Shown: piece by piece, positions 20,313-28,507 of the stretch
Numbering within the stretch: the first letter of the stretch is position 1
How the letters are laid out: each line of letters begins with the position of its first letter
Origin: Acidimicrobiales bacterium
GTDB taxonomy: Bacteria; Actinomycetota; Acidimicrobiia; Acidimicrobiales; Aldehydirespiratoraceae
Length of the DNA: 64,000 nucleotides
Direction of reading: 5' to 3'
Assembly: GCA_965214285.1 (NCBI GenBank)
Contig: OZ243946.1
Span: 2,017,207 to 2,081,206 of the forward strand
Made by a program: the position numbers and the translations under genes
Notes under the pieces: model-generated
The model's input: the letters and a program-made list of their open reading frames with translations, nothing else
What the model was told of the DNA's origin: nothing
Databases searched by the model: none

Positions 20313-21413
20313 ATGACTGAACCACAGAACTATCTCGCCATGATCAAGATCGTCGGCGTCGGCGGCGGCGGCGTCAACGCCGTCAACCGCATGATCGACG
20401 CGGGCCTCAAGGGCGTCGAGTTCATCGCCGTCAACACCGACGCCCAGGCGCTGGTGCTGAGCGACGCCCACGAGAAGCTCGACATCGGCCAGGATCTCAC
20501 GAGGGGGCTGGGCGCAGGCTCGGACCCCGAGATCGGCCGCGAAGCAGCCGAGGCCCATGTCGACGAGATCCGCGAGATGCTCGCCAGCGCCGACATGGTG
20601 TTCATCGCCGCGGGCGAGGGCGGCGGCACCGGCACCGGGGCCGCGCCGGTGATCGCCGAGATCGCCAAGAGCCAGGGGGCGCTGACCATCGGCGTCGTCA
20701 CCAGGCCTTTCGCCTTCGAGGGGCGGCGCCGGTCGGTGCAGGCCGAACAGGGCATCCACAAGCTCAAGGAGAAGGTCGACACCACGATCGTCATCCCCAA
20801 CGAGCGCCTGCTGGGGGTGGCCAACAGCGAGACATCGGTGATCAGCGCCTTCAAGATGGCCGACGAGATCCTCCTGCAGGGCGTGCAGGGCATAACCGAT
20901 CTGGTCACCACGCCGGGCCTGATCAACACCGACTTCGCCGATGTGCGCACCGTGATGTCCGACGCCGGCTCGGCCCTGATGGGCATCGGCACCGGACGCG
21001 GCGAGGGCCGGGCCCTGACCGCGGCTCGTGCCGCCATCTCCAGCCCGCTTCTGGAGGCCTCCATCGAGAACGCCCGCGGCGTGCTGCTCAACATCTCCGG
21101 CGGTCCCGACCTGGGGCTGCTGGAGGTCAACGAAGCCGCCGAGATCATCCACGGGGTGGCTCACCAGGACGCCAACATCATCTTCGGCGCGGTGATCGAC
21201 AACAACATGGAGGACGACGTGCGGGTCACGGTCATCGCAGCGGGCTTCGACCGCTGGGACGACTCCGACGCAGCGCCCTCGGTCGGCTCGGTCCTGCAGT
21301 CCGAGTCCCAGGGCGCCGGGCTGACCGGCGAGGTGCCCATCGCCGACGTCTTCGCCACCGACGACGACCTGGATCTCGACGACGACTTCGACGTGCCGTC
21401 GTTCCTGAAATAG
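20313..21413 (+). CDS. ftsZ: Cell division GTPase FtsZ
   Basis: 366 aa with [17 protein letters not shown], the tubulin signature [20 protein letters not shown] and the C-terminal peptide [11 protein letters not shown]. The RBS GAGGA lies upstream. Confidence 0.98.
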
Positions 21414-23822: not shown

Positions 23823-23838
23823 TACTATCCCGCGCATG
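23823..23838 (+). promoter_or_regulatory. Candidate -10 element placing the divIVA ATG at the transcript 5' end (possibly leaderless)
   Basis: TACTAT (23823-23828) is followed by 7 nt and then the ATG at 23836. There is no Shine-Dalgarno sequence upstream. This is pattern-based only. Confidence 0.25.
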
Positions 23839-25431
23839 GATGGCATGCCAGATACATCAGATCCCTTAGCAGAGCCCGCGGCGGACCCCGTCGAGTTCAG
23901 CGTCGTGCGCAAGGGATACGACCGCAGCGAGGTCGATTCCTACATGTGGAGCGTCTCTCGCAAGCAGATGGTTTTCGAGACCCAGCTGGCCGCCTACCGG
24001 GACCGGGCCCGCGCGGCGGAGGAACAGCTCAGCAAGGCCGCAGACGCCGAGCCCCAGGTGTCCGAGGAGACCATCGCCCGCGCCCTGGTGCTCGCCCAGC
24101 ACACTGCGGACACGCTCATCGCCGAGGCCAAGCTGAAGGCCAAGAAGATGTTCGCGGAAGCTCGCAGCAGGGCCGGCGACGCTGCCGCCAAGGGCGACAA
24201 CCACGCCGCTCGCGTGGTGGCGGAGGCCGAGTTCGACAGCAAGCGCATCCTCGATGAGGCAGCAGAGGCCGCCAAGGCCGCCGCCATCGAGGAGCGGGAG
24301 CAGATGGCAGCCGCTATCGACGAGCTCGCCGGGAAGCGCGACATACTCCTGGAAGACGTGAGGCTTCTGGAGGAGCACCTCAGCAAACAGCGGTCGGCAC
24401 TGCTGGAGTCGCTGCGCGAACTGCAAGACCTGGCCGAGCACCCGGAAGCCCTGCGGTTGGCTGCACCGCCGGAGACGTCGAACCTGCAGGCGCCCTCCGT
24501 TCCCCTCACTGCCGAGGCGCCCGACCCTGTTGCCGCGCCCGCCCCTGTTGCTGCGCCCGCTGTGCCTGTCGACGCCGAAGCAGTCGACACCCCCGATCTT
24601 GCCATCGTGTCCGACGCATCCGAGACAGCCGAGGCCCCTGACCCTGGTGCGCCGGCCGACGCGCCCGACGCCTCAGAGGTGCTCGAGACTCCTGGCGCTG
24701 CTGCGCATGCAGAGTCCGCCGGGCCGGTCGACAATGTCGTGCCCGAGGACATCGGCGCGTCTGGCGAGCCTGCTGCGCCTGCTCCGCGGGCCGGGCCTGT
24801 CGACCCCGTTGAGCCGGCCGGCCCGTTCGCGGCTCTCAGCCGTCTGCACAACGCCGAGACTGCGGAGCCTGCCGGCGCCGTCGACACTGCCGGCTCGCCT
24901 GGCGCCGAGACGGAGACCAGGGGCGACGATCTCTTCTCCGCCTATGCGCTCCGCACCGAAGAGGTGCCGACGGCGGATCCGGCTGTCCGGCCGGTGGCAG
25001 CGCCGCAGCCTCTGGCCCCGCCTGGGCCTGCGCCTTCCGCCGAGCAGCAGTCGCTTCCGCCGGTGATGCTCACCATGCCAGAGGTCGAGGGAGGCGTGAC
25101 CGCAGGCGCCGAGTTCGACCTGGGGGCCACAGCCCCCTTCCCGGTGATCGAAGTACCCGACGACGGCCCTGCCGCCGATGCTCAGCGCCCAGCTCCGCCC
25201 GCCAGATCAGGGCAGTCTGCCAGATCAGGGCAGTCTGCCGGTTCAGCGCCGCCCGCCGGCTCAGCGCAGTCTGATGAGCAGGATCCGCCATATGCGGCCG
25301 ACAGCTTTCTCGAGCAGCTCCGTGAGGCCGTGTCCTCCCCGGGTGCTCAGCCGGTCGAGGACCCATTCACGGCATTCTTCGAGCAGGACGACGACCACAA
25401 GGAGCGCTCCTGGTTCGGTCGACGGCGCTGA
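23836..25431 (+). CDS. divIVA: DivIVA/Wag31-family polar scaffold protein with a long Pro/Ala-rich tail
   Basis: 531 aa. The N-terminal DivIVA motif is FSVVRKGYDRSEVDSYM. A long coiled-coil region covers about aa 45-210. The C-terminal 320 aa or so are P/A/E-rich and low-complexity. Confidence 0.88.
   Translation: MDGMPDTSDPLAEPAADPVEFSVVRKGYDRSEVDSYMWSVSRKQMVFETQLAAYRDRARAAEEQLSKAADAEPQVSEETIARALVLAQHTADTLIAEAKLKAKKMFAEARSRAGDAAAKGDNHAARVVAEAEFDSKRILDEAAEAAKAAAIEEREQMAAAIDELAGKRDILLEDVRLLEEHLSKQRSALLESLRELQDLAEHPEALRLAAPPETSNLQAPSVPLTAEAPDPVAAPAPVAAPAVPVDAEAVDTPDLAIVSDASETAEAPDPGAPADAPDASEVLETPGAAAHAESAGPVDNVVPEDIGASGEPAAPAPRAGPVDPVEPAGPFAALSRLHNAETAEPAGAVDTAGSPGAETETRGDDLFSAYALRTEEVPTADPAVRPVAAPQPLAPPGPAPSAEQQSLPPVMLTMPEVEGGVTAGAEFDLGATAPFPVIEVPDDGPAADAQRPAPPARSGQSARSGQSAGSAPPAGSAQSDEQDPPYAADSFLEQLREAVSSPGAQPVEDPFTAFFEQDDDHKERSWFGRRR
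25201..25272 (+). repeat. Four 18-nt tandem units inside the divIVA tail
   Basis: GCCAGATCAGGGCAGTCT occurs twice perfectly (25201-25236), followed by two diverged units. Together they encode ARSGQS-ARSGQS-AGSAPP-AGSAQS. Confidence 0.8.
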
Positions 25432-25537
25432 CCGGCTGAGCTTGGGGTTCAGCAGCGCAGAAGTCCGCGCTGACGCTTAGACTCCCGGCACGCGATCCCC
25501 GGCATGGCGGATCGCGCAAGGGGAGAGGACCACCTCG

Positions 25538-27064
25538 ATGGCCACAAGCAAGAAGTCGGCAGCCCCCGCCGATAACGCACCCGCCAAGCGACCAGCCAAG
25601 AAAGCCCCGGCGAAGAAGGCCCCAGCCAAGAGAGCCGCCCCGGCGAAGAAGGCTGCCCCTGCAAAGAAGGCTGCGCCAGCCAAGAAGGCCCCGGCGAAGA
25701 GGGCTGCGCCGGTCAAGAAGGCCCCGGCCAAGAAGGCTCCGGCGAAGAAGGCACCCGCCAAGCGTGCTGCGCCGAAGAAGGCTGCGCCCGCCAAGAAGGC
25801 CCCGGCCAAGAAGGCGCCCGCCAAGCGGCCCACCCGAGCCAAGAAGGCTGCGCCGGTCAAGAAGGCGCCCGCCAAGCGGCCCACCCGAGCCAAGAAGGCT
25901 GCGCCCGCCAAGAAGGCCGCCCCGGCCAAGAAGGCTCCGGCGAAGAAGGCAGCAGCTAAGCGCCCTGCACCGAAGAAGGCTGCCCCCGCCAAGAAGGCGG
26001 TGAAGAAGGCGCCCGCCAAGCGGCCCACCCGAGCCAAGAAGGCTGCGCCGGTCAAGAAGGCACCGGCCAAGCGCCCTGCGCCGAAGAAGGCCCCGGTCAA
26101 GAAGGCGGCCCCGGCCAAGAAGAAGGCGCCCGTCAAGCGTGCTGCGCCGAAGAAGGCTGCCCCCGCCAAGAAGGCTCCGGCGAAGAAGGCTGCCCCCGCA
26201 AAGAAGGCGGTGAAGAAGGCGCCCGCCAAGCGGCCAGCGCCGAAGAAGGCGGCTGCGGCCAAGAAGGCCCCGGCCAAGAAGGTCCCGGCGAAGAGGGCGG
26301 CCCCGGCGAAGAAGGCGGTGAAGAAGGCGCCCGCCAAGCGGCCAGCGCCGAAGAAGGCGGCTGCGGCCAAGAAGGCCCCGGCGAAGAAGGTCCCGGCGAA
26401 GAGGGCGGCCCCGGCGAAGAAGGCCCCTGCAAAGCGTGCTGCGCCGAAGAAGGCTGCCCCCGCAAAGAAGGCGGTGAAGAAGGCGCCAGCCAAGCGCTCT
26501 GCGCCGAAGAAGGCTGCCCCCGCAAAGAAGGCGGTGAAGAAGGCGCCCGCCAAGCGCCCTGCGCCCAAGAAGGCGGTCAAGAAGGCGCCCGCCAAGCGCC
26601 CAGCGCCGAAGAAGGCGGTCAAGAAAGCCCCTGCCAAGAAGAAGGCCCCCAAGAAGAAGAAGGCCGCCAAGAAGAAGCCCGCCAAGCCGAAGTTCTCGGC
26701 GAAGTTCATCGCCTCGATGAAGGAGAAGCTGCTGATCGAGCGCGGCAAGTACCAGCACTCCGAGGAGAGCTACCGCGCCGAGGCCGAGTCGCTTCTCGAG
26801 GCCCGAGAGCCCGGCGACACCGTGTTCGACGAGGAGTCAGGCGAGGGCGACAGCCTGGCAGTGGAGCGCGAGCGCGACCTCGCCCTCTCCGCCCAGGCCC
26901 ACAACACCGTCGACCAGATCGACGCAGCCCTGGCGCGAATCGAGTCCGGCAGCTACGGGATCTGCGTCGTCTCCGGCCTCCCCATCCCCAAGGAACGCCT
27001 CGAGGCGATCCCCTGGGCGGCCGAGCGGGTGGAATACAAGGTGGGCCGTCTGGGCGGGTTCTGA
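25538..27064 (+). CDS. Fusion protein: N-terminal lysine/alanine/proline-rich histone H1-like repeat region plus a C-terminal DksA/TraR-like domain with a degenerate zinc finger
   Basis: 508 aa. Residues 5-388 or so are almost entirely A, K, P, R and V (PAKKA, AKRPA and KKAV repeats). Residues 389-508 read KFIASMKEKLLIERGKY...DEESGEGDSLAVERERDLALSAQAHNTVDQIDAALARIESGSYGICVVSGLPIPKERLEAIPWAAERVEYK, matching the actinobacterial TraR/DksA family except at the cysteines. The RBS GGGGAGAGG lies upstream. Confidence 0.85.
   Translation: MATSKKSAAPADNAPAKRPAKKAPAKKAPAKRAAPAKKAAPAKKAAPAKKAPAKRAAPVKKAPAKKAPAKKAPAKRAAPKKAAPAKKAPAKKAPAKRPTRAKKAAPVKKAPAKRPTRAKKAAPAKKAAPAKKAPAKKAAAKRPAPKKAAPAKKAVKKAPAKRPTRAKKAAPVKKAPAKRPAPKKAPVKKAAPAKKKAPVKRAAPKKAAPAKKAPAKKAAPAKKAVKKAPAKRPAPKKAAAAKKAPAKKVPAKRAAPAKKAVKKAPAKRPAPKKAAAAKKAPAKKVPAKRAAPAKKAPAKRAAPKKAAPAKKAVKKAPAKRSAPKKAAPAKKAVKKAPAKRPAPKKAVKKAPAKRPAPKKAVKKAPAKKKAPKKKKAAKKKPAKPKFSAKFIASMKEKLLIERGKYQHSEESYRAEAESLLEAREPGDTVFDEESGEGDSLAVERERDLALSAQAHNTVDQIDAALARIESGSYGICVVSGLPIPKERLEAIPWAAERVEYKVGRLGGF
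26198..26413 (+). repeat. Near-identical 108-nt tandem duplication inside the lysine-rich gene
   Basis: Unit 1 (26198-26305) and unit 2 (26306-26413) differ at 2 of 108 nt. Both encode AKKAVKKAPAKRPAPKKAAAAKKAPAKKVPAKRAAP. The whole 25550-26700 region is a lower-order AAGAAGGC(N) repeat landscape. Confidence 0.9.
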
Positions 27065-27082
27065 GCGCCCGGCAAGTTCTGG

Positions 27083-28033
27083 GTGCCCGGCAAGACAGTG
27101 ACCGCTGTCAGCGAGACAGTCCCGTCCGGCTTCGACGGCGAGCGGGTCGACCGTTTCGTGGCGGCTCTGACCGGTCGTAGCCGCTCGGCAGTCGCCGCGC
27201 TGCTCGACGGCGGCGCCATCAGCGTCGACGGCCGGGCCGTCAGCACCGCCTCGCTGCGCCTGCACAGCGGCCAGCAGGTGAGCGTGGAGGTTCCCCCAGA
27301 GCTGCGAGCCGTCCCCGAGCCCGATCCGGCTGTCGACTTCACGGTCGTGTACAGCGACGAGCACATCGTGGTGGTCGACAAGCCCCCGGGCCTGGTGGTT
27401 CACCCGGGCCCGGGCCATCCTCACGGCACCCTGGTCAACGGCCTGCTGGCCCGCTTCGCAGAGATCGCGTCGGTCGGCGACCCGCAGCGTCCCGGCATCG
27501 TTCACCGGCTCGACAAGGACACCTCGGGGCTGCTGGTCGTGGCCCGCACCAGCGCGGCCCATTCCGCTCTGGTGAAAGCCCTGGCGGCGCACCTGCCGGA
27601 GCGGGTCTACACAACCCTTGTCTGGGGGCGCCTCTACGCCGACGAAGGCACGATCGACGCCCCGATCGGGCGCTCGGTGCGCAACCGGGTCCGCATGACC
27701 GTCAGCGACAGCGGGCGGGCGGCGATCACCCGCTACCGGGTGCTGCGGCGCTTCGAGCGGCCCTGCGAGCTGACGCTGCTGGAGTGCCGCCTGGAGACCG
27801 GCAGGACGCATCAGATCCGTGTGCATCTGCGTGCCATCGGGCATCCGGTGGCGGGCGATCGCAGCTACGACGGCGCACGGCCCGGCATCGAGGTGCCACG
27901 GCCCTTCCTGCATGCCTGCAGGCTGGGCTTCGCCCACCCGATCAGCGGCGGGGCCGTCGCCTTCAGCTCGGCTCTGCCCGATGACCTGGCCGCAGTCCTC
28001 GCGCAGTGCAGCGACGCCGGATCAGGGGCCTGA
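27083..28033 (+). CDS. rluD: RluA/RluD-family 23S rRNA pseudouridine synthase
   Basis: 316 aa with an N-terminal S4 domain (RVDRFVAALTGRSRSAVAALLDGGAISVDGR), VVVDKPPGLVVHPG, the catalytic motif GIVHRLDKDTSGLLVVA, and TGRTHQIRVH. Confidence 0.92.
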   Translation: MPGKTVTAVSETVPSGFDGERVDRFVAALTGRSRSAVAALLDGGAISVDGRAVSTASLRLHSGQQVSVEVPPELRAVPEPDPAVDFTVVYSDEHIVVVDKPPGLVVHPGPGHPHGTLVNGLLARFAEIASVGDPQRPGIVHRLDKDTSGLLVVARTSAAHSALVKALAAHLPERVYTTLVWGRLYADEGTIDAPIGRSVRNRVRMTVSDSGRAAITRYRVLRRFERPCELTLLECRLETGRTHQIRVHLRAIGHPVAGDRSYDGARPGIEVPRPFLHACRLGFAHPISGGAVAFSSALPDDLAAVLAQCSDAGSGA

Positions 28034-28507
28034 GGCGACCGCCGGCGCGTCCGACTGGTCTTGCGCCTGGGCATCGGCGGGCCAGGGCGCCTCGCCGCGG
28101 GCCATGCAGGCGATGTCGGCGAGGCTGAAGGACTCCAGGAAGCTCTGCATGTGACACCCGGCAGCGCCCCAGATGGCCAGCAGCACGCATTGCCCCTCGT
28201 GGTCGCAGGCCCCGTCGGTGTGAGGATCGCCGAAGTCGCCGGCGGTGATCGGCCCGTCGACCGCACGCACGATCTCGCTCAGCCTGATCGCCTCAGGGGG
28301 ACGGGCCAGCACGTAGCCGCCGCCCACGCCGCGCTTTGAGCGCACGATGCCGGCGCCCTTCAGTGCCAGCAGGATCTGCTCCAGATACGGCTGGGGCAGG
28401 GCGGTGCGCTCGGCTATCTCACGCACCGAGGTGGGGGTCTGCGCAGTGTGCAGCGCCAGCGAGAGCAGCGCTCTGGCCGCATAGTCCCCCCGAGTCGAGA
28501 CGCGCAT
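28022..28507 (-). CDS. Rrf2-family transcriptional regulator (probable Fe-S cluster-binding type)
   Basis: 161 aa, MRVSTRGDYAARALLSLA...SVREIAERTALPQPYLEQILLALKGAGIVRSKRGVGGGYVLARP, which is a winged HTH. A Cys triad follows: GACDHEGQCVLLAIWGAAGCH. The 3' end overlaps the rluD 3' end by 12 nt (convergent). Confidence 0.9.
   Translation of the reverse strand: MRVSTRGDYAARALLSLALHTAQTPTSVREIAERTALPQPYLEQILLALKGAGIVRSKRGVGGGYVLARPPEAIRLSEIVRAVDGPITAGDFGDPHTDGACDHEGQCVLLAIWGAAGCHMQSFLESFSLADIACMARGEAPWPADAQAQDQSDAPAVASGP

What the first reader, a model, noticed from the sequence alone, without database searches (positions are those of the whole stretch)
25538..27064. Histone H1-like AKKAP-repeat region fused to a cysteine-depleted DksA/TraR domain
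One 508-aa ORF joins about 385 residues composed almost entirely of A, K, P, R and V (PAKKA/AKRPA repeats, the composition of eukaryotic H1 tails and actinobacterial HU/Hlp tails) to a C-terminal 120-aa domain. That domain matches the actinobacterial TraR/DksA family, with DEESGEGD...VERERDLALSA...ALARIESGSYG.

At the canonical C4 zinc-finger positions (CxxC...CxxC), this protein reads C-VV-S ... R-VE-Y. Only one of the four cysteines remains, so zinc binding is probably lost.

I recall a Streptomyces bifunctional protein (DdbA) that combines a DksA-like domain with an H1-like domain, but there the basic tail is C-terminal. That recollection needs checking. Here the basic region is N-terminal and much longer.

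The gene occupies the position just after divIVA, where actinobacteria often carry a plain TraR/DksA gene. The combination suggests a nucleoid-associated, RNAP secondary-channel-type factor.
Basis: partly seen in the sequence, partly recalled or inferred. Interest (0 to 1): 0.6.

Follow-up and report, generated by a model that had tools for sequence, protein, structure and literature searches.

The report
Giant-tailed zinc-free DdbA-like DksA protein
This gene encodes a zinc-free DksA-type RNA-polymerase-binding module joined to an unusually long (385-residue, +151 charge) histone-H1-like tail, an extreme new relative of the Streptomyces nucleoid protein DdbA and not a new kind of protein.

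Summary
ORF 25538-27064 (+) encodes 508 aa. Residues 1-385 are 97% A/K/P/R/V (net charge +151). Residues 386-508 are a DksA/TraR-family domain: Pfam PF01258 scores above threshold, and the AlphaFold model best matches DksA2, Chlamydia DksA and E. coli DksA. The zinc-site positions read C-S-R-Y.

[quoted passage not shown] It has been tested experimentally. One-cysteine, zinc-free "C1" DksA proteins are also known (Chlamydia 6PTG, Rhodobacter).

The gene is the dcw-cluster-linked DksA-like gene of Actinomycetota (ftsZ-sepF-divIVA-X-rluD). Thousands of Acidimicrobiia homologues carry basic tails, so the fusion is not an assembly chimera.

New points:
- The combination of a tail with a C1 site, using R/Y replacements the literature does not describe.
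- A graded C4→C3→C1→C0 series inside one family.
- An acidic tip FDEESGEGD in place of DxxDxA, and no C-terminal helix.
- The longest and most highly charged tail among the 510 relatives retrieved (next longest 263 aa, next highest charge +62).

The likely function is a nucleoid-bound, zinc- and probably ppGpp-independent factor of the RNA polymerase secondary channel. Interest is modest.

The parts
25538..27064 (+). Complete gene for the 508-aa H1-like-tail / DksA-like fusion protein (stop codon included)
   Evidence: ORF list. GC3 is 0.86. The N-terminus is conserved with homologues.
25517..25530 (+). Shine-Dalgarno-like sequence (GGGGAGAGGA) about 8 nt upstream of the ATG
   Evidence: Read directly from the sequence. 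No sigma-70 consensus promoter was found in 25300-28200.
25538..26692 (+). Polycationic low-complexity N-terminal region (aa 1-385). It has 76 degenerate 4-6-residue [A/P]xxKK/KR units and a net charge of +151. It is the presumed DNA/polyanion-binding tail.
   Evidence: Composition. Tandem Repeats Finder reports periods of 15/33/108/195 nt at 63-91% matches. The longest exact repeat is 74 nt. Pfam HC2 scores 32 bits and NCBIfam hist_H1_lk_Burk 75 bits, both just below their cut-offs.
26693..27061 (+). DksA/TraR-family domain (aa 386-508): a coiled-coil hairpin plus a small globular domain
   Evidence: PF01258 scores 27.1 bits against a cut-off of 24.9. PDB sequence hits are 6PTG, 2KQ9, 4IJJ and 1TJL. 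The AF2 model has pLDDT 76.8 with helices at 388-421 and 437-470. The top 8 Foldseek hits are all DksA family, with TM up to 0.75.
26801..26851 (+). Coiled-coil tip loop (aa 422-438) carrying the family-invariant acidic motif GDxxFDEESGEGD. This is the presumed active-site-proximal tip.
   Evidence: The loop lies between the two long helices in the model and has low pLDDT. The motif F-D-[E/D]-E-[S/G]-G-E-G-[D/G] occurs in 494 of 510 relatives. Column conservation is given.
26963..27040 (+). Former zinc-finger segment (aa 476-501): C476-VV-S479-x17-R497-VE-Y500, followed by K501 (equivalent to E. coli K139)
   Evidence: Gapless alignment to E. coli DksA C114/C117/C135/C138/K139. C476, S479, R497 and K501 are invariant in 121 of 121 closest relatives, and position 500 is Y in 117 of 121. 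The model has pLDDT around 90 here.
23836..25431 (+). Upstream neighbour divIVA, the last gene of the dcw/division cluster (synteny anchor)
   Evidence: Pfam DivIVA, E = 3.8e-10. The cluster ftsW-murC-murB-ftsQ-ftsZ-pgeF-sepF lies upstream.
27083..28033 (+). Downstream neighbour, an rluD-type pseudouridine synthase. It starts 18 nt after the stop codon and is probably co-transcribed.
   Evidence: Pfam S4 plus PseudoU_synth_2. No terminator-like site was found on the + strand between the genes. The same gene order occurs in L006, L030, L040 and L049.

Best explanation
This is the Acidimicrobiia counterpart of Streptomyces DdbA: a two-part nucleoid-associated transcription factor encoded at the distal end of the cell-division (dcw) cluster.

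**Part 1 (aa 1-385).** An intrinsically disordered polycation (+151) made of degenerate AKKAP-type units. It binds DNA non-specifically, and possibly other polyanions, as the 93-aa H1-like domain of DdbA does in gel-shift assays. This keeps the protein on the nucleoid and contributes to compaction. DNA binding is inferred from composition and from DdbA.

**Part 2 (aa 386-508).** A DksA-fold module. Two helices of about 34 residues each form a hairpin of the same length as that of E. coli DksA. This hairpin would insert into the RNA polymerase secondary channel and place an invariant acidic tip (FDEESGEGD) near the active site. The small globular domain would sit on the channel rim. The fold is shown by prediction. 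RNAP binding is inferred.

**Zinc and ppGpp.** The globular domain is a zinc-independent C1 type. Arg497 and Tyr500 replace two ligands and presumably fill the former metal site (inferred). K139 is kept as K501. The E. coli ppGpp site-2 residues R91 and K98 are Gln here, and the C-terminal helix is missing. The factor therefore probably acts without ppGpp, more like TraR or YlyA than like E. coli DksA (inferred).

**The tail.** It grew by tandem duplication of 15-195-nt blocks and is hypervariable between lineages. This genome carries the largest version seen.
For: - **Same architecture and neighbourhood as DdbA.** DdbA has been characterised experimentally: EMSA binding through its N-terminal domain, nucleoid and supercoiling phenotypes, and relA suppression that requires the full-length protein (PMC3643593).
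- **Domain identity.**
- **Fold.** The model has helices 4-37 and 53-86 of the domain plus a confident globular part. The top eight Foldseek PDB hits are all DksA family. They include zinc-free DksA2 4IJJ (TMq 0.74), C1 Chlamydia DksA 6PTG, and RNAP-bound E. coli DksA 7KHI/5VSW.
- **Zinc-free precedent.** The C1 DksA structure has no zinc, and C1/C2 proteins can be functional (PMC9126822; PMC4010833).
- **Purifying selection on the module.** The C-domain is 70-77% identical across 120 relatives, while the tails vary freely in length and motif. CS-R-Y and the tip motif are fixed.
- **Synteny.** ftsZ-sepF-divIVA-X-rluD-(Rrf2-PDE-Bpa)-dnaE is seen in the window and in other Acidimicrobiia. Plain C4 versions sit at the same position in L040 and in Propionicimonas L049.
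- **Tail present across zinc-site states.** 127 of 141 representatives have tails of at least 40 aa.
- **Tail growth by duplication.** Higher-order repeats show 80-91% matches.
Against: - There is no direct evidence for DNA or RNAP binding by this protein or by any Acidimicrobiia homologue.
- The canonical DxxDxA tip motif, regarded as the best indicator of DksA-like function (PMC4010833), is absent. The tip reads ExxExD, and D74E inactivates E. coli DksA, although D80E is tolerated in the Rhodobacter protein.
- The nearest solved relative, Chlamydia C1-DksA, did not complement E. coli dksA (PMC9126822).
- The tip loop is modelled with low confidence (pLDDT 52-61).
- I could not retrieve the SCO2075 sequence. 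Orthology with DdbA therefore rests on architecture, family and synteny, not on a direct alignment or tree.
- The exact tail length cannot be verified without reads.
Confidence: 0.7

Rival explanations
1. The fusion is real, but its extreme 385-aa tail length is an assembly or sequencing artefact caused by mis-expansion of a repetitive region. On this view the true protein has a tail of about 60-260 aa, like its relatives.
For: - Seven of 30 Acidimicrobiia loci in public genomes end inside this repeat, so assemblers struggle here.
- The tail is 1.5 times longer than the next longest among 510 relatives, and its charge is 2.4 times the next highest.
- The exact protein and its two neighbours are not on record elsewhere, so there is no independent assembly to compare. 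The look-up used wrong coordinates.
Against: - The repeats are degenerate (63-91% matches). The longest exact direct repeat is 74 nt, which ordinary reads span.
- The reading frame is intact over 1.15 kb, with host-like codon usage and GC3 of 0.86.
- Tail lengths in relatives form a continuum from 6 to 263 aa, so large tails do occur.
- Assembly errors in such repeats usually collapse them, not expand them (general knowledge).
Confidence: 0.1
2. The DksA-like module no longer acts on RNA polymerase. The protein would simply be a histone-H1-like nucleoid or polyphosphate-granule protein (like AlgP or Hc2), and its folded C-domain would serve only as a dimerisation or anchoring knob.
For: - The tip lacks DxxDxA, the C-terminal helix is missing, and three zinc ligands are lost.
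- Chlamydia C1-DksA does not complement E. coli dksA (PMC9126822).
- K/P/A-repeat H1-like proteins can work on polyphosphate granules instead of on DNA (title and abstract of PMC9239181).
Against: - The coiled-coil tip is the most conserved part of the whole family: F430, D431, E433, G435, E436 and G437 are each kept in at least 93% of 150 divergent representatives. That pattern is expected for an active-site-proximal element, not for a passive knob.
- The helix lengths match the secondary-channel ruler of E. coli DksA (PMC4010833).
- Zinc and the C4 motif are dispensable in proven DksA proteins (PMC4010833).
- In DdbA the relA-suppression phenotype needed the DksA-like half (PMC3643593).
Confidence: 0.15
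3. It is a classical stringent-response DksA. It would work synergistically with ppGpp at an RNAP site 2, as in E. coli, and the tail would be an accessory.
For: - The family assignment and fold fit.
- K501 aligns with E. coli K139 and is conserved: K in 120 and R in 12 of 150 representatives.
- DdbA overexpression suppresses relA phenotypes (PMC3643593).
Against: - The residues aligned with E. coli R91 and K98 are Q453 and Q460. The family consensus at these positions is Q and E. That R91, K98 and K139 form ppGpp site 2 is my own knowledge (Ross et al. 2016), not checked here.
- There is no C-terminal helix and no DxxDxA.
- The dksA equivalog models score far below their cut-offs: 32-36 bits against 105-115.
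Confidence: 0.05

Closest known systems
DdbA (SCO2075) of Streptomyces coelicolor (Aldridge et al. 2013, PMC3643593)
   Same: [quoted passage not shown]
- Encoded close to ftsZ in the conserved division region.
- The length of the basic domain varies between orthologues.
- Proposed to couple nucleoid structure with RNAP modulation.
   Different: - DdbA keeps the four-cysteine zinc finger and, according to the authors, both tip aspartates. This protein has one Cys (C-S-R-Y) and the tip FDEESGEGD.
- The tail is 385 aa here versus 93 aa in DdbA, and the repeat units are AKKAP/AKRPA instead of S/T-A/T-A-K-K.
- The taxonomic class differs (Acidimicrobiia). The paper stated that orthologues occur only in streptomycetes.
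- I could not make a direct sequence comparison.
C1-type (one-cysteine, zinc-free) DksA: Chlamydia trachomatis DksA (PDB 6PTG) and Rhodobacter sphaeroides RSP2654
   Same: - It is the best PDB sequence match (E = 5.5e-14 with the family profile) and shares SYGIC-VSG--IP.
- Only the first Cys is retained, with the same x17 spacing.
- 6PTG contains no metal.
- Like the modelled tip here, the 6PTG tip region is disordered.
- The Chlamydia gene is linked to lspA, as are the ancestral actinobacterial versions (L040, L049).
   Different: - Described C1 proteins follow CxxS/T-x17-C/S/TxxA. Here positions 3 and 4 are Arg and Tyr.
- They have no polycationic tail.
- RSP2654 has DxxDxA and a C-terminal helix and works with ppGpp. 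This protein lacks both features.
YteA/YlyA subfamily of DksA/TraR proteins in Bacillus (TIGR02890)
   Same: - It is the best-scoring NCBIfam model over nearly the whole domain (73 bits, model positions 3-114).
- B. subtilis ylyA lies at divIVA-ileS-ylyA (PMC5282499), the same chromosomal neighbourhood.
- YlyA is cited as a transcription factor for sigma-G-dependent germination genes (PMC6568419). That it binds RNAP is my own knowledge of Traag et al. 2013, not checked here.
   Different: - The score is far below the family cut-off of 134.4.
- There is no basic tail in Bacillus.
- I did not check the Bacillus zinc site.
Bacterial histone-H1-like polycations: Chlamydia Hc2 (PF07382), Burkholderia-type H1-like protein (NF038053), Pseudomonas AlgP, and the tails of HupS/Hlp
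   Same: - K/A/P-rich short tandem repeats with extreme pI.
- The models hit the tail at 32 bits (Pfam HC2) and 75 bits (NF038053).
   Different: - Both scores fall just below the curated cut-offs. The resemblance is compositional and not demonstrable homology.
- Those proteins are stand-alone or are fused to HU, not to a DksA module.
Myxococcus xanthus CarD (RNAP-interacting CarD_TRCF domain plus HMGA-like basic DNA-binding tail; PMC2919716)
   Same: It follows the same design logic: an RNAP-contacting module fused to a eukaryote-like basic chromatin-binding tail.
   Different: - The folds are unrelated.
- The RNAP contact site differs (beta-subunit lobe versus secondary channel).
- The tail is C-terminal.

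Membership tests
DksA/TraR family (Pfam PF01258 and DksA fold) | Significant match to the zf-dskA_traR model | tested here: met
   The domain alone scores 27.1 bits against a gathering cut-off of 24.9. In the full-length context it scores 24.3 bits, marginally below. The match covers only model positions 1-24 of 36, because the second half of the finger has lost its Cys.
DksA/TraR family (Pfam PF01258 and DksA fold) | Coiled-coil hairpin plus small globular domain | tested here: met
   The AF2 model has helices 4-37 and 53-86 plus a globular part at pLDDT around 90. The top 8 Foldseek PDB hits are all DksA proteins, with TMq 0.57-0.75 for the best five.
DksA/TraR family (Pfam PF01258 and DksA fold) | CxxC-x17-CxxC zinc finger | tested here: not met
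   The positions read C476-xx-S479-x17-R497-xx-Y500. The literature accepts C2 and C1 zinc-free members (PMC9126822, PMC4010833), so this does not exclude family membership.
Functional DksA sensu stricto (E. coli-like, ppGpp-synergistic) | DxxDxA motif at the coiled-coil tip | tested here: not met
   No DxxDxA occurs at the tip. The only match (D459-QI-D-A-A) lies in helix 2. The tip reads E433-S-G-E436-G-D438 within FDEESGEGD. Only 5 of 510 relatives have DxxDxA in the coiled-coil part.
Functional DksA sensu stricto (E. coli-like, ppGpp-synergistic) | C-terminal alpha-helix (E. coli residues 135-151) | tested here: not met
   The protein ends 8 residues (KVGRLGGF) after the position equivalent to C138.
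Functional DksA sensu stricto (E. coli-like, ppGpp-synergistic) | Basic residues that form ppGpp site 2 (E. coli R91, K98, K139; from my own knowledge) | tested here: not met
   The aligned residues are Q453, Q460 and K501, so only K139 is retained.
Functional DksA sensu stricto (E. coli-like, ppGpp-synergistic) | Match to the dksA equivalog models (TIGR02420, NF033459) | tested here: not met
   Scores are 32-36 bits against cut-offs of 115.5 and 105.
DdbA-type bifunctional nucleoid protein (Streptomyces SCO2075) | [quoted passage not shown] | tested here: met
   with the domain order as described in PMC3643593.
DdbA-type bifunctional nucleoid protein (Streptomyces SCO2075) | Location in the conserved division-gene region near ftsZ | tested here: met
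   ftsZ is at 20313 and divIVA lies immediately upstream. The synteny is conserved in L006, L030, L040 and L049.
DdbA-type bifunctional nucleoid protein (Streptomyces SCO2075) | Four-cysteine zinc finger, reported as conserved in DdbA | tested here: not met
   The pattern is CSRY. Tailed relatives with CCCC do exist in Acidimicrobiales.
DdbA-type bifunctional nucleoid protein (Streptomyces SCO2075) | Sequence orthology to SCO2075 (alignment or tree) | not tested
   The SCO2075 sequence was not obtainable. The paper's supplement is not held. The three homologue searches returned only Acidimicrobiia-type sequences.
DdbA-type bifunctional nucleoid protein (Streptomyces SCO2075) | DNA binding and condensation by the N-terminal domain; effects on transcription and stress response | not testable with these tools
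   This requires EMSA, AFM and genetics.
C1-DksA (zinc-independent, one cysteine) | [quoted passage not shown] | tested here: inconclusive
   The first half (C-VV-S) and the x17 spacing are met. The second half reads R-VE-Y, not C/S/T-xx-A (motif as quoted in PMC9126822).
YteA/YlyA subfamily (TIGR02890) | Score above the subfamily cut-off | tested here: not met
   73.1 bits against a cut-off of 134.4. It is nevertheless the best NCBIfam model for the DksA-like domain, covering positions 3-114 of 159.
Histone H1-like nucleoproteins (Pfam HC2 PF07382; NCBIfam NF038053) | Score above the curated cut-off | tested here: not met
   HC2 scores 32.2 bits against 40, and hist_H1_lk_Burk scores 75.2 against 80. 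The similarity is compositional only.

The most novel reading that the evidence does not exclude
The dcw-linked DksA-like gene of Acidimicrobiia may be a natural evolutionary series. On this reading, a secondary-channel factor first acquired a chromatin-type polycationic tail and then discarded its zinc site step by step (C4 to C3 to C1 to C0).

The tail would act as a rapidly evolving, length-tunable element: repeat expansion and contraction would set how much RNA polymerase regulator is held on the nucleoid, or how strongly the nucleoid is compacted or phase-separated. The 385-aa, +151 version here would then be the extreme of an adaptive dosage dial and not neutral repeat drift. The R497/Y500 pair would be a previously undescribed way of replacing a zinc ion structurally.
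Probability: 0.2. Interest if true: 0.6.

Novelty: new variant of a known kind. Interest (0 to 1): 0.33.

Why it matters
DdbA is so far the only described bacterial protein that physically joins a histone-like DNA binder to an RNA-polymerase secondary-channel factor. It was reported as restricted to Streptomyces.

This locus, together with the thousands of relatives found here, shows three things:
- The same design is the norm in a second actinobacterial class, Acidimicrobiia.
- The design tolerates complete loss of the zinc finger.
- The tail can grow to four times the DdbA size.

That broadens the known range of the design. It also offers a natural series (C4, C3, C1, C0; tails from 6 to 385 aa) for testing what zinc and tail length contribute. 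Finally, it warns that short-read assemblies systematically break or truncate these genes.

It does not reveal a new mechanism.

Tried and rejected
- **Independent assemblies.** Exact-sequence look-ups of the 508-aa protein and of the RluD neighbour found nothing. The Rrf2 look-up used wrong minus-strand coordinates and is uninformative. The tail length therefore could not be cross-checked.
- **SCO2075 sequence.** I tried to obtain it for a direct alignment. The paper's supplement is not held. A third homologue search seeded with a C4 'GEGGT'-type domain returned only Acidimicrobiales proteins. Cluster look-ups gave no organism names.
- **Regulatory RNA or terminator.** I looked between divIVA and the gene and around it. 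There were no Rfam hits. The intergenic fold is not significant (z = -1.55). There was no consensus promoter, and the terminator-like sites lie only on the antisense strand at the background rate.
- **Antisense ORFs.** I considered that the long ORFs of 463 and 423 aa on the - strand might be genes. I rejected this because they are low-complexity mirror translations with no homologues. One has a GC3 of only 0.61 and the other 0.85, against 0.86 for the + frame.
- **Other polycationic ORFs and lspA.** I searched the window for both and found none.
- **Source organism.** There are no rRNA or tRNA genes in the window. The best genome matches are 71% identical in the C-domain and all come from Acidimicrobiales/Acidimicrobiia MAGs.
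- **Chimeric fusion.** I rejected the idea that the fusion is a chimera of two genes, because tail-plus-domain proteins are found in thousands of independent contigs.
Full report
**1. The observation**

The ORF 25538..27064 (+) exists exactly as described and encodes 508 aa.
- Residues 1-385 contain 141 Ala, 131 Lys, 68 Pro, 21 Arg and 14 Val. That is 97.4% of the segment. There is a single acidic residue, the net charge is +151 and the pI is about 12.
- The segment consists of 76 short units ending in KK or KR. The commonest are APAKR x13, AAPAKK x13, APAKK x8, AVKK x7 and PAPKK x6.
- At the DNA level it is a degenerate array. The basic period is 15 nt, with higher-order periods of 108 and 195 nt at about 80% matches and short stretches at 91%. 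The longest exact direct repeat is 74 nt.
- GC3 in the + frame is 0.86 and codon use matches neighbouring genes.
- The two long antisense ORFs are mirror products of the repeat.
- A GGAGAGGA Shine-Dalgarno-like sequence precedes the ATG. The N-terminus MATSKK resembles the homologues' MATAKK/MATKKK.

**2. The C-terminal domain**

Residues 386-508 are acidic (pI 4.7).
- Scanned alone, they match Pfam zf-dskA_traR above the gathering score (27.1 versus 24.9 bits). They also match the yteA and dksA NCBIfam models, below those models' cut-offs.
- Against PDB sequences the best hits are Chlamydia trachomatis DksA 6PTG, Agrobacterium 2KQ9, P. aeruginosa DksA2 4IJJ and E. coli DksA 1TJL. A family profile improves 6PTG to E = 5.5e-14.
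- The profile alignment to E. coli DksA is gapless from residue 90 to 140. It puts C476, S479, R497 and Y500 on C114, C117, C135 and C138, and K501 on K139.
- An AlphaFold2 model built on 66 sequences (mean pLDDT 76.8) shows two 34-residue helices, a 15-residue acidic tip loop of low confidence, and a confident globular domain.
- The top eight Foldseek PDB hits are all DksA proteins. They include zinc-free DksA2 (TMq 0.74) and RNAP-bound E. coli DksA.

**3. The DdbA recollection was wrong**

Aldridge et al. 2013 (PMC3643593) describe DdbA (SCO2075) as follows:
[quoted passage not shown] - It has a conserved four-cysteine finger.
- Its gene lies near ftsZ in all 19 streptomycete genomes examined.
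- The N-terminal domain varies in length between orthologues.

They showed DNA binding by the N-terminal half, effects on nucleoid condensation and supercoiling, and relA suppression that needs the full-length protein. A characterised protein with identical architecture therefore exists. The authors stated that orthologues occur only in streptomycetes.

**4. Cys depletion is a known class and is fixed in this clade**

The literature recognises C2 and C1 zinc-independent DksA proteins, with the motif CxxS/T-x17-C/S/TxxA. 6PTG contains no metal. Rhodobacter RSP2654 (C1) is a functional DksA (PMC9126822; PMC4010833).

In the 120 closest homologues, all Acidimicrobiales-type at 70-77% identity, C476, S479 and R497 are invariant and position 500 is Y in 117 of 121 sequences. 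The Arg and Tyr at positions 3 and 4 differ from the described motif.

**5. Family survey**

- *Numbers.* The domain has more than 4,000 relatives in the 5.8-billion-protein set. The full-length protein has 4,288 hits at E <= 0.001 among 1.84 billion representatives.
- *Tails.* Nearly all close relatives carry K/A/P/T/V-rich N-terminal tails. Among 124 representatives with a complete domain, tail length ranges from 6 to 261 aa (263 by a second method).
- *This protein.* The maximum tail net charge among the first 390 relatives is +62. The window protein, at 385 aa and +151, is therefore the extreme of a continuum.
- *Database bias.* Seven of 30 Acidimicrobiia genome loci end inside the repeat, so database tail lengths are biased low.
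- *Zinc-site states.* Among 150 representatives there are 62 CCCC, 8 CACC, 3 CSCC, 17 CSRY, 5 CSRV, 3 CSRF and 21 SSLE, among others.
- *Tree.* A neighbour-joining tree without support values orders the states as CCCC, then CACC/CSCC, then the CS-x-x C1 forms (including the window), then CSRE/SSRE, then SSLE. Tails of at least 40 aa occur in 127 of 141 members across all states.
- *C4 forms.* C4 tailed forms also come from Acidimicrobiales.
- *Tip.* The tip motif F-D-[E/D]-E-[S/G]-G-E-G-[D/G] is present in 494 of 510 relatives. It is the most conserved part of the family.

**6. Genomic context**

The gene follows ftsW, murC, murB, ftsQ, ftsZ, pgeF, sepF and divIVA. It is followed after 18 nt by rluD, then Rrf2 (on the - strand), a phosphodiesterase, Bpa and dnaE.
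- The same order occurs in other Acidimicrobiia (L006, L030).
- A divergent Acidimicrobiia lineage (L040) and Propionicimonas (L049) have divIVA, then a plain untailed C4 DksA-like gene, then lspA, then rluD.
- B. subtilis has divIVA-ileS-ylyA (PMC5282499), and Chlamydia dksA is linked to lspA (PMC9126822).
- This is therefore an ancient positional gene that gained a tail and lost its cysteines in this lineage. lspA is absent from the whole window.

**7. Mechanism**

- *Shown:* the family, the predicted fold, the Cys pattern, the synteny, and strong conservation of the tip and globular domain alongside free evolution of the tail.
- *Inferred from DdbA and composition:* the tail binds DNA non-specifically and places the protein on the nucleoid.
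- *Inferred from the fold and from coiled-coil helices (about 34 residues each) similar in length to the E. coli coiled-coil domain, residues 35-109:* the hairpin enters the RNAP secondary channel with the acidic tip near the active site.
- *Inferred from R91/K98 being Gln and from the absence of the C-terminal helix and of DxxDxA:* the factor does not act through the E. coli-type ppGpp site 2. It is closer in logic to TraR or YlyA.

Failing the criteria for DksA sensu stricto lowers the claim "it is a DksA". It does not lower the claim that it works as a secondary-channel factor.

**8. Rivals**

- *Artefactual tail length.* This cannot be excluded without reads. It is disfavoured by the degeneracy of the repeats and the intact frame.
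- *Inert DksA domain, or a polyphosphate or other polyanion target for the tail (AlgP precedent, PMC9239181).* This is disfavoured by the strong conservation of the tip.
- *Classical ppGpp-dependent DksA.* This is disfavoured by the residue tests.

**9. Verdict**

This is a new variant of a known kind.
- It is a DdbA-like fusion in Acidimicrobiia with a C1 (CSRY) zinc-free site, a non-canonical acidic tip and no C-terminal helix.
- It has the longest and most highly charged tail seen.
- Interest is modest (0.33).
- The family-level series of zinc-site loss and the hypervariable tail length are the parts most worth following up.

Noticed in passing
Relatives P0121-P0390 (e.g. P0142, P0205, P0226); not in the window: Completely cysteine-free (C0) DksA-like domains are abundant among tailed relatives. 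The patterns are SSLE, SSRE and SSSE at the four zinc positions. They account for 87 of 120 hits in one search and 25 of 141 representatives. This contradicts the statement quoted in PMC9126822 that the first cysteine is always conserved. An unsupported NJ tree suggests stepwise loss from C4 to C3 to C1 to C0.
   Followed up: partly
Loci L002, L003, L017, L022, L023, L024, L028 (starts of contigs): Seven of 30 Acidimicrobiia genome loci end inside the basic repeat just upstream of the DksA domain. Short-read MAG assemblies evidently break in this gene, so public protein sets under-represent long tails.
   Followed up: partly
window 23836-25431 (+): The upstream DivIVA is unusually long at 531 aa. 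It has an acidic low-complexity region of about 300 aa rich in A, P, E and D, and an overall net charge of -54. It is encoded directly beside the +151 polycation. Whether the two interact electrostatically is unknown.
   Followed up: no
window 27065-27082, and L040 6363-6824 / L049 6273-6878: lspA sits between the DksA-like gene and rluD in L040 and L049, and is linked to dksA in Chlamydia. It is missing here. The gap to rluD is only 18 nt, and tblastn finds no lspA anywhere in the 64-kb window.
   Followed up: yes
Alignment A1, tail columns versus PDB (8K60_F, 7VPZ_F, 5TW1_F): The tail profile also matches the lysine/alanine-rich N-terminal regions of actinobacterial principal sigma factors (HrdB, SigA) and a mycobacterial uL22 extension. 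Similar polycationic tracts therefore recur on the transcription and translation machinery of the phylum. The matches are probably driven by composition.
   Followed up: no
L030 5761-6960: In this nanopore-derived MAG the DksA-like ORF runs 399 aa, up to the start of rluD, and the match E-value is weaker. This is probably a frameshift or read-through error near the 3' end.
   Followed up: no
P0389 (NCBI MEM6749052.1): A tailed relative of 316 aa with a CSCV zinc-site pattern is labelled Planctomycetota by its source. This is either a mis-binned contig or an occurrence of the fusion outside Actinomycetota.
   Followed up: no
window 1-64000: There are no tRNA genes and no Rfam family hits at gathering threshold in the entire window, so the window gives no RNA marker for identifying the organism. 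The best genome matches point to an Acidimicrobiales lineage without a close sequenced representative (at most 71% identity in the C-domain among genome loci, 77% among metagenomic proteins).
   Followed up: yes
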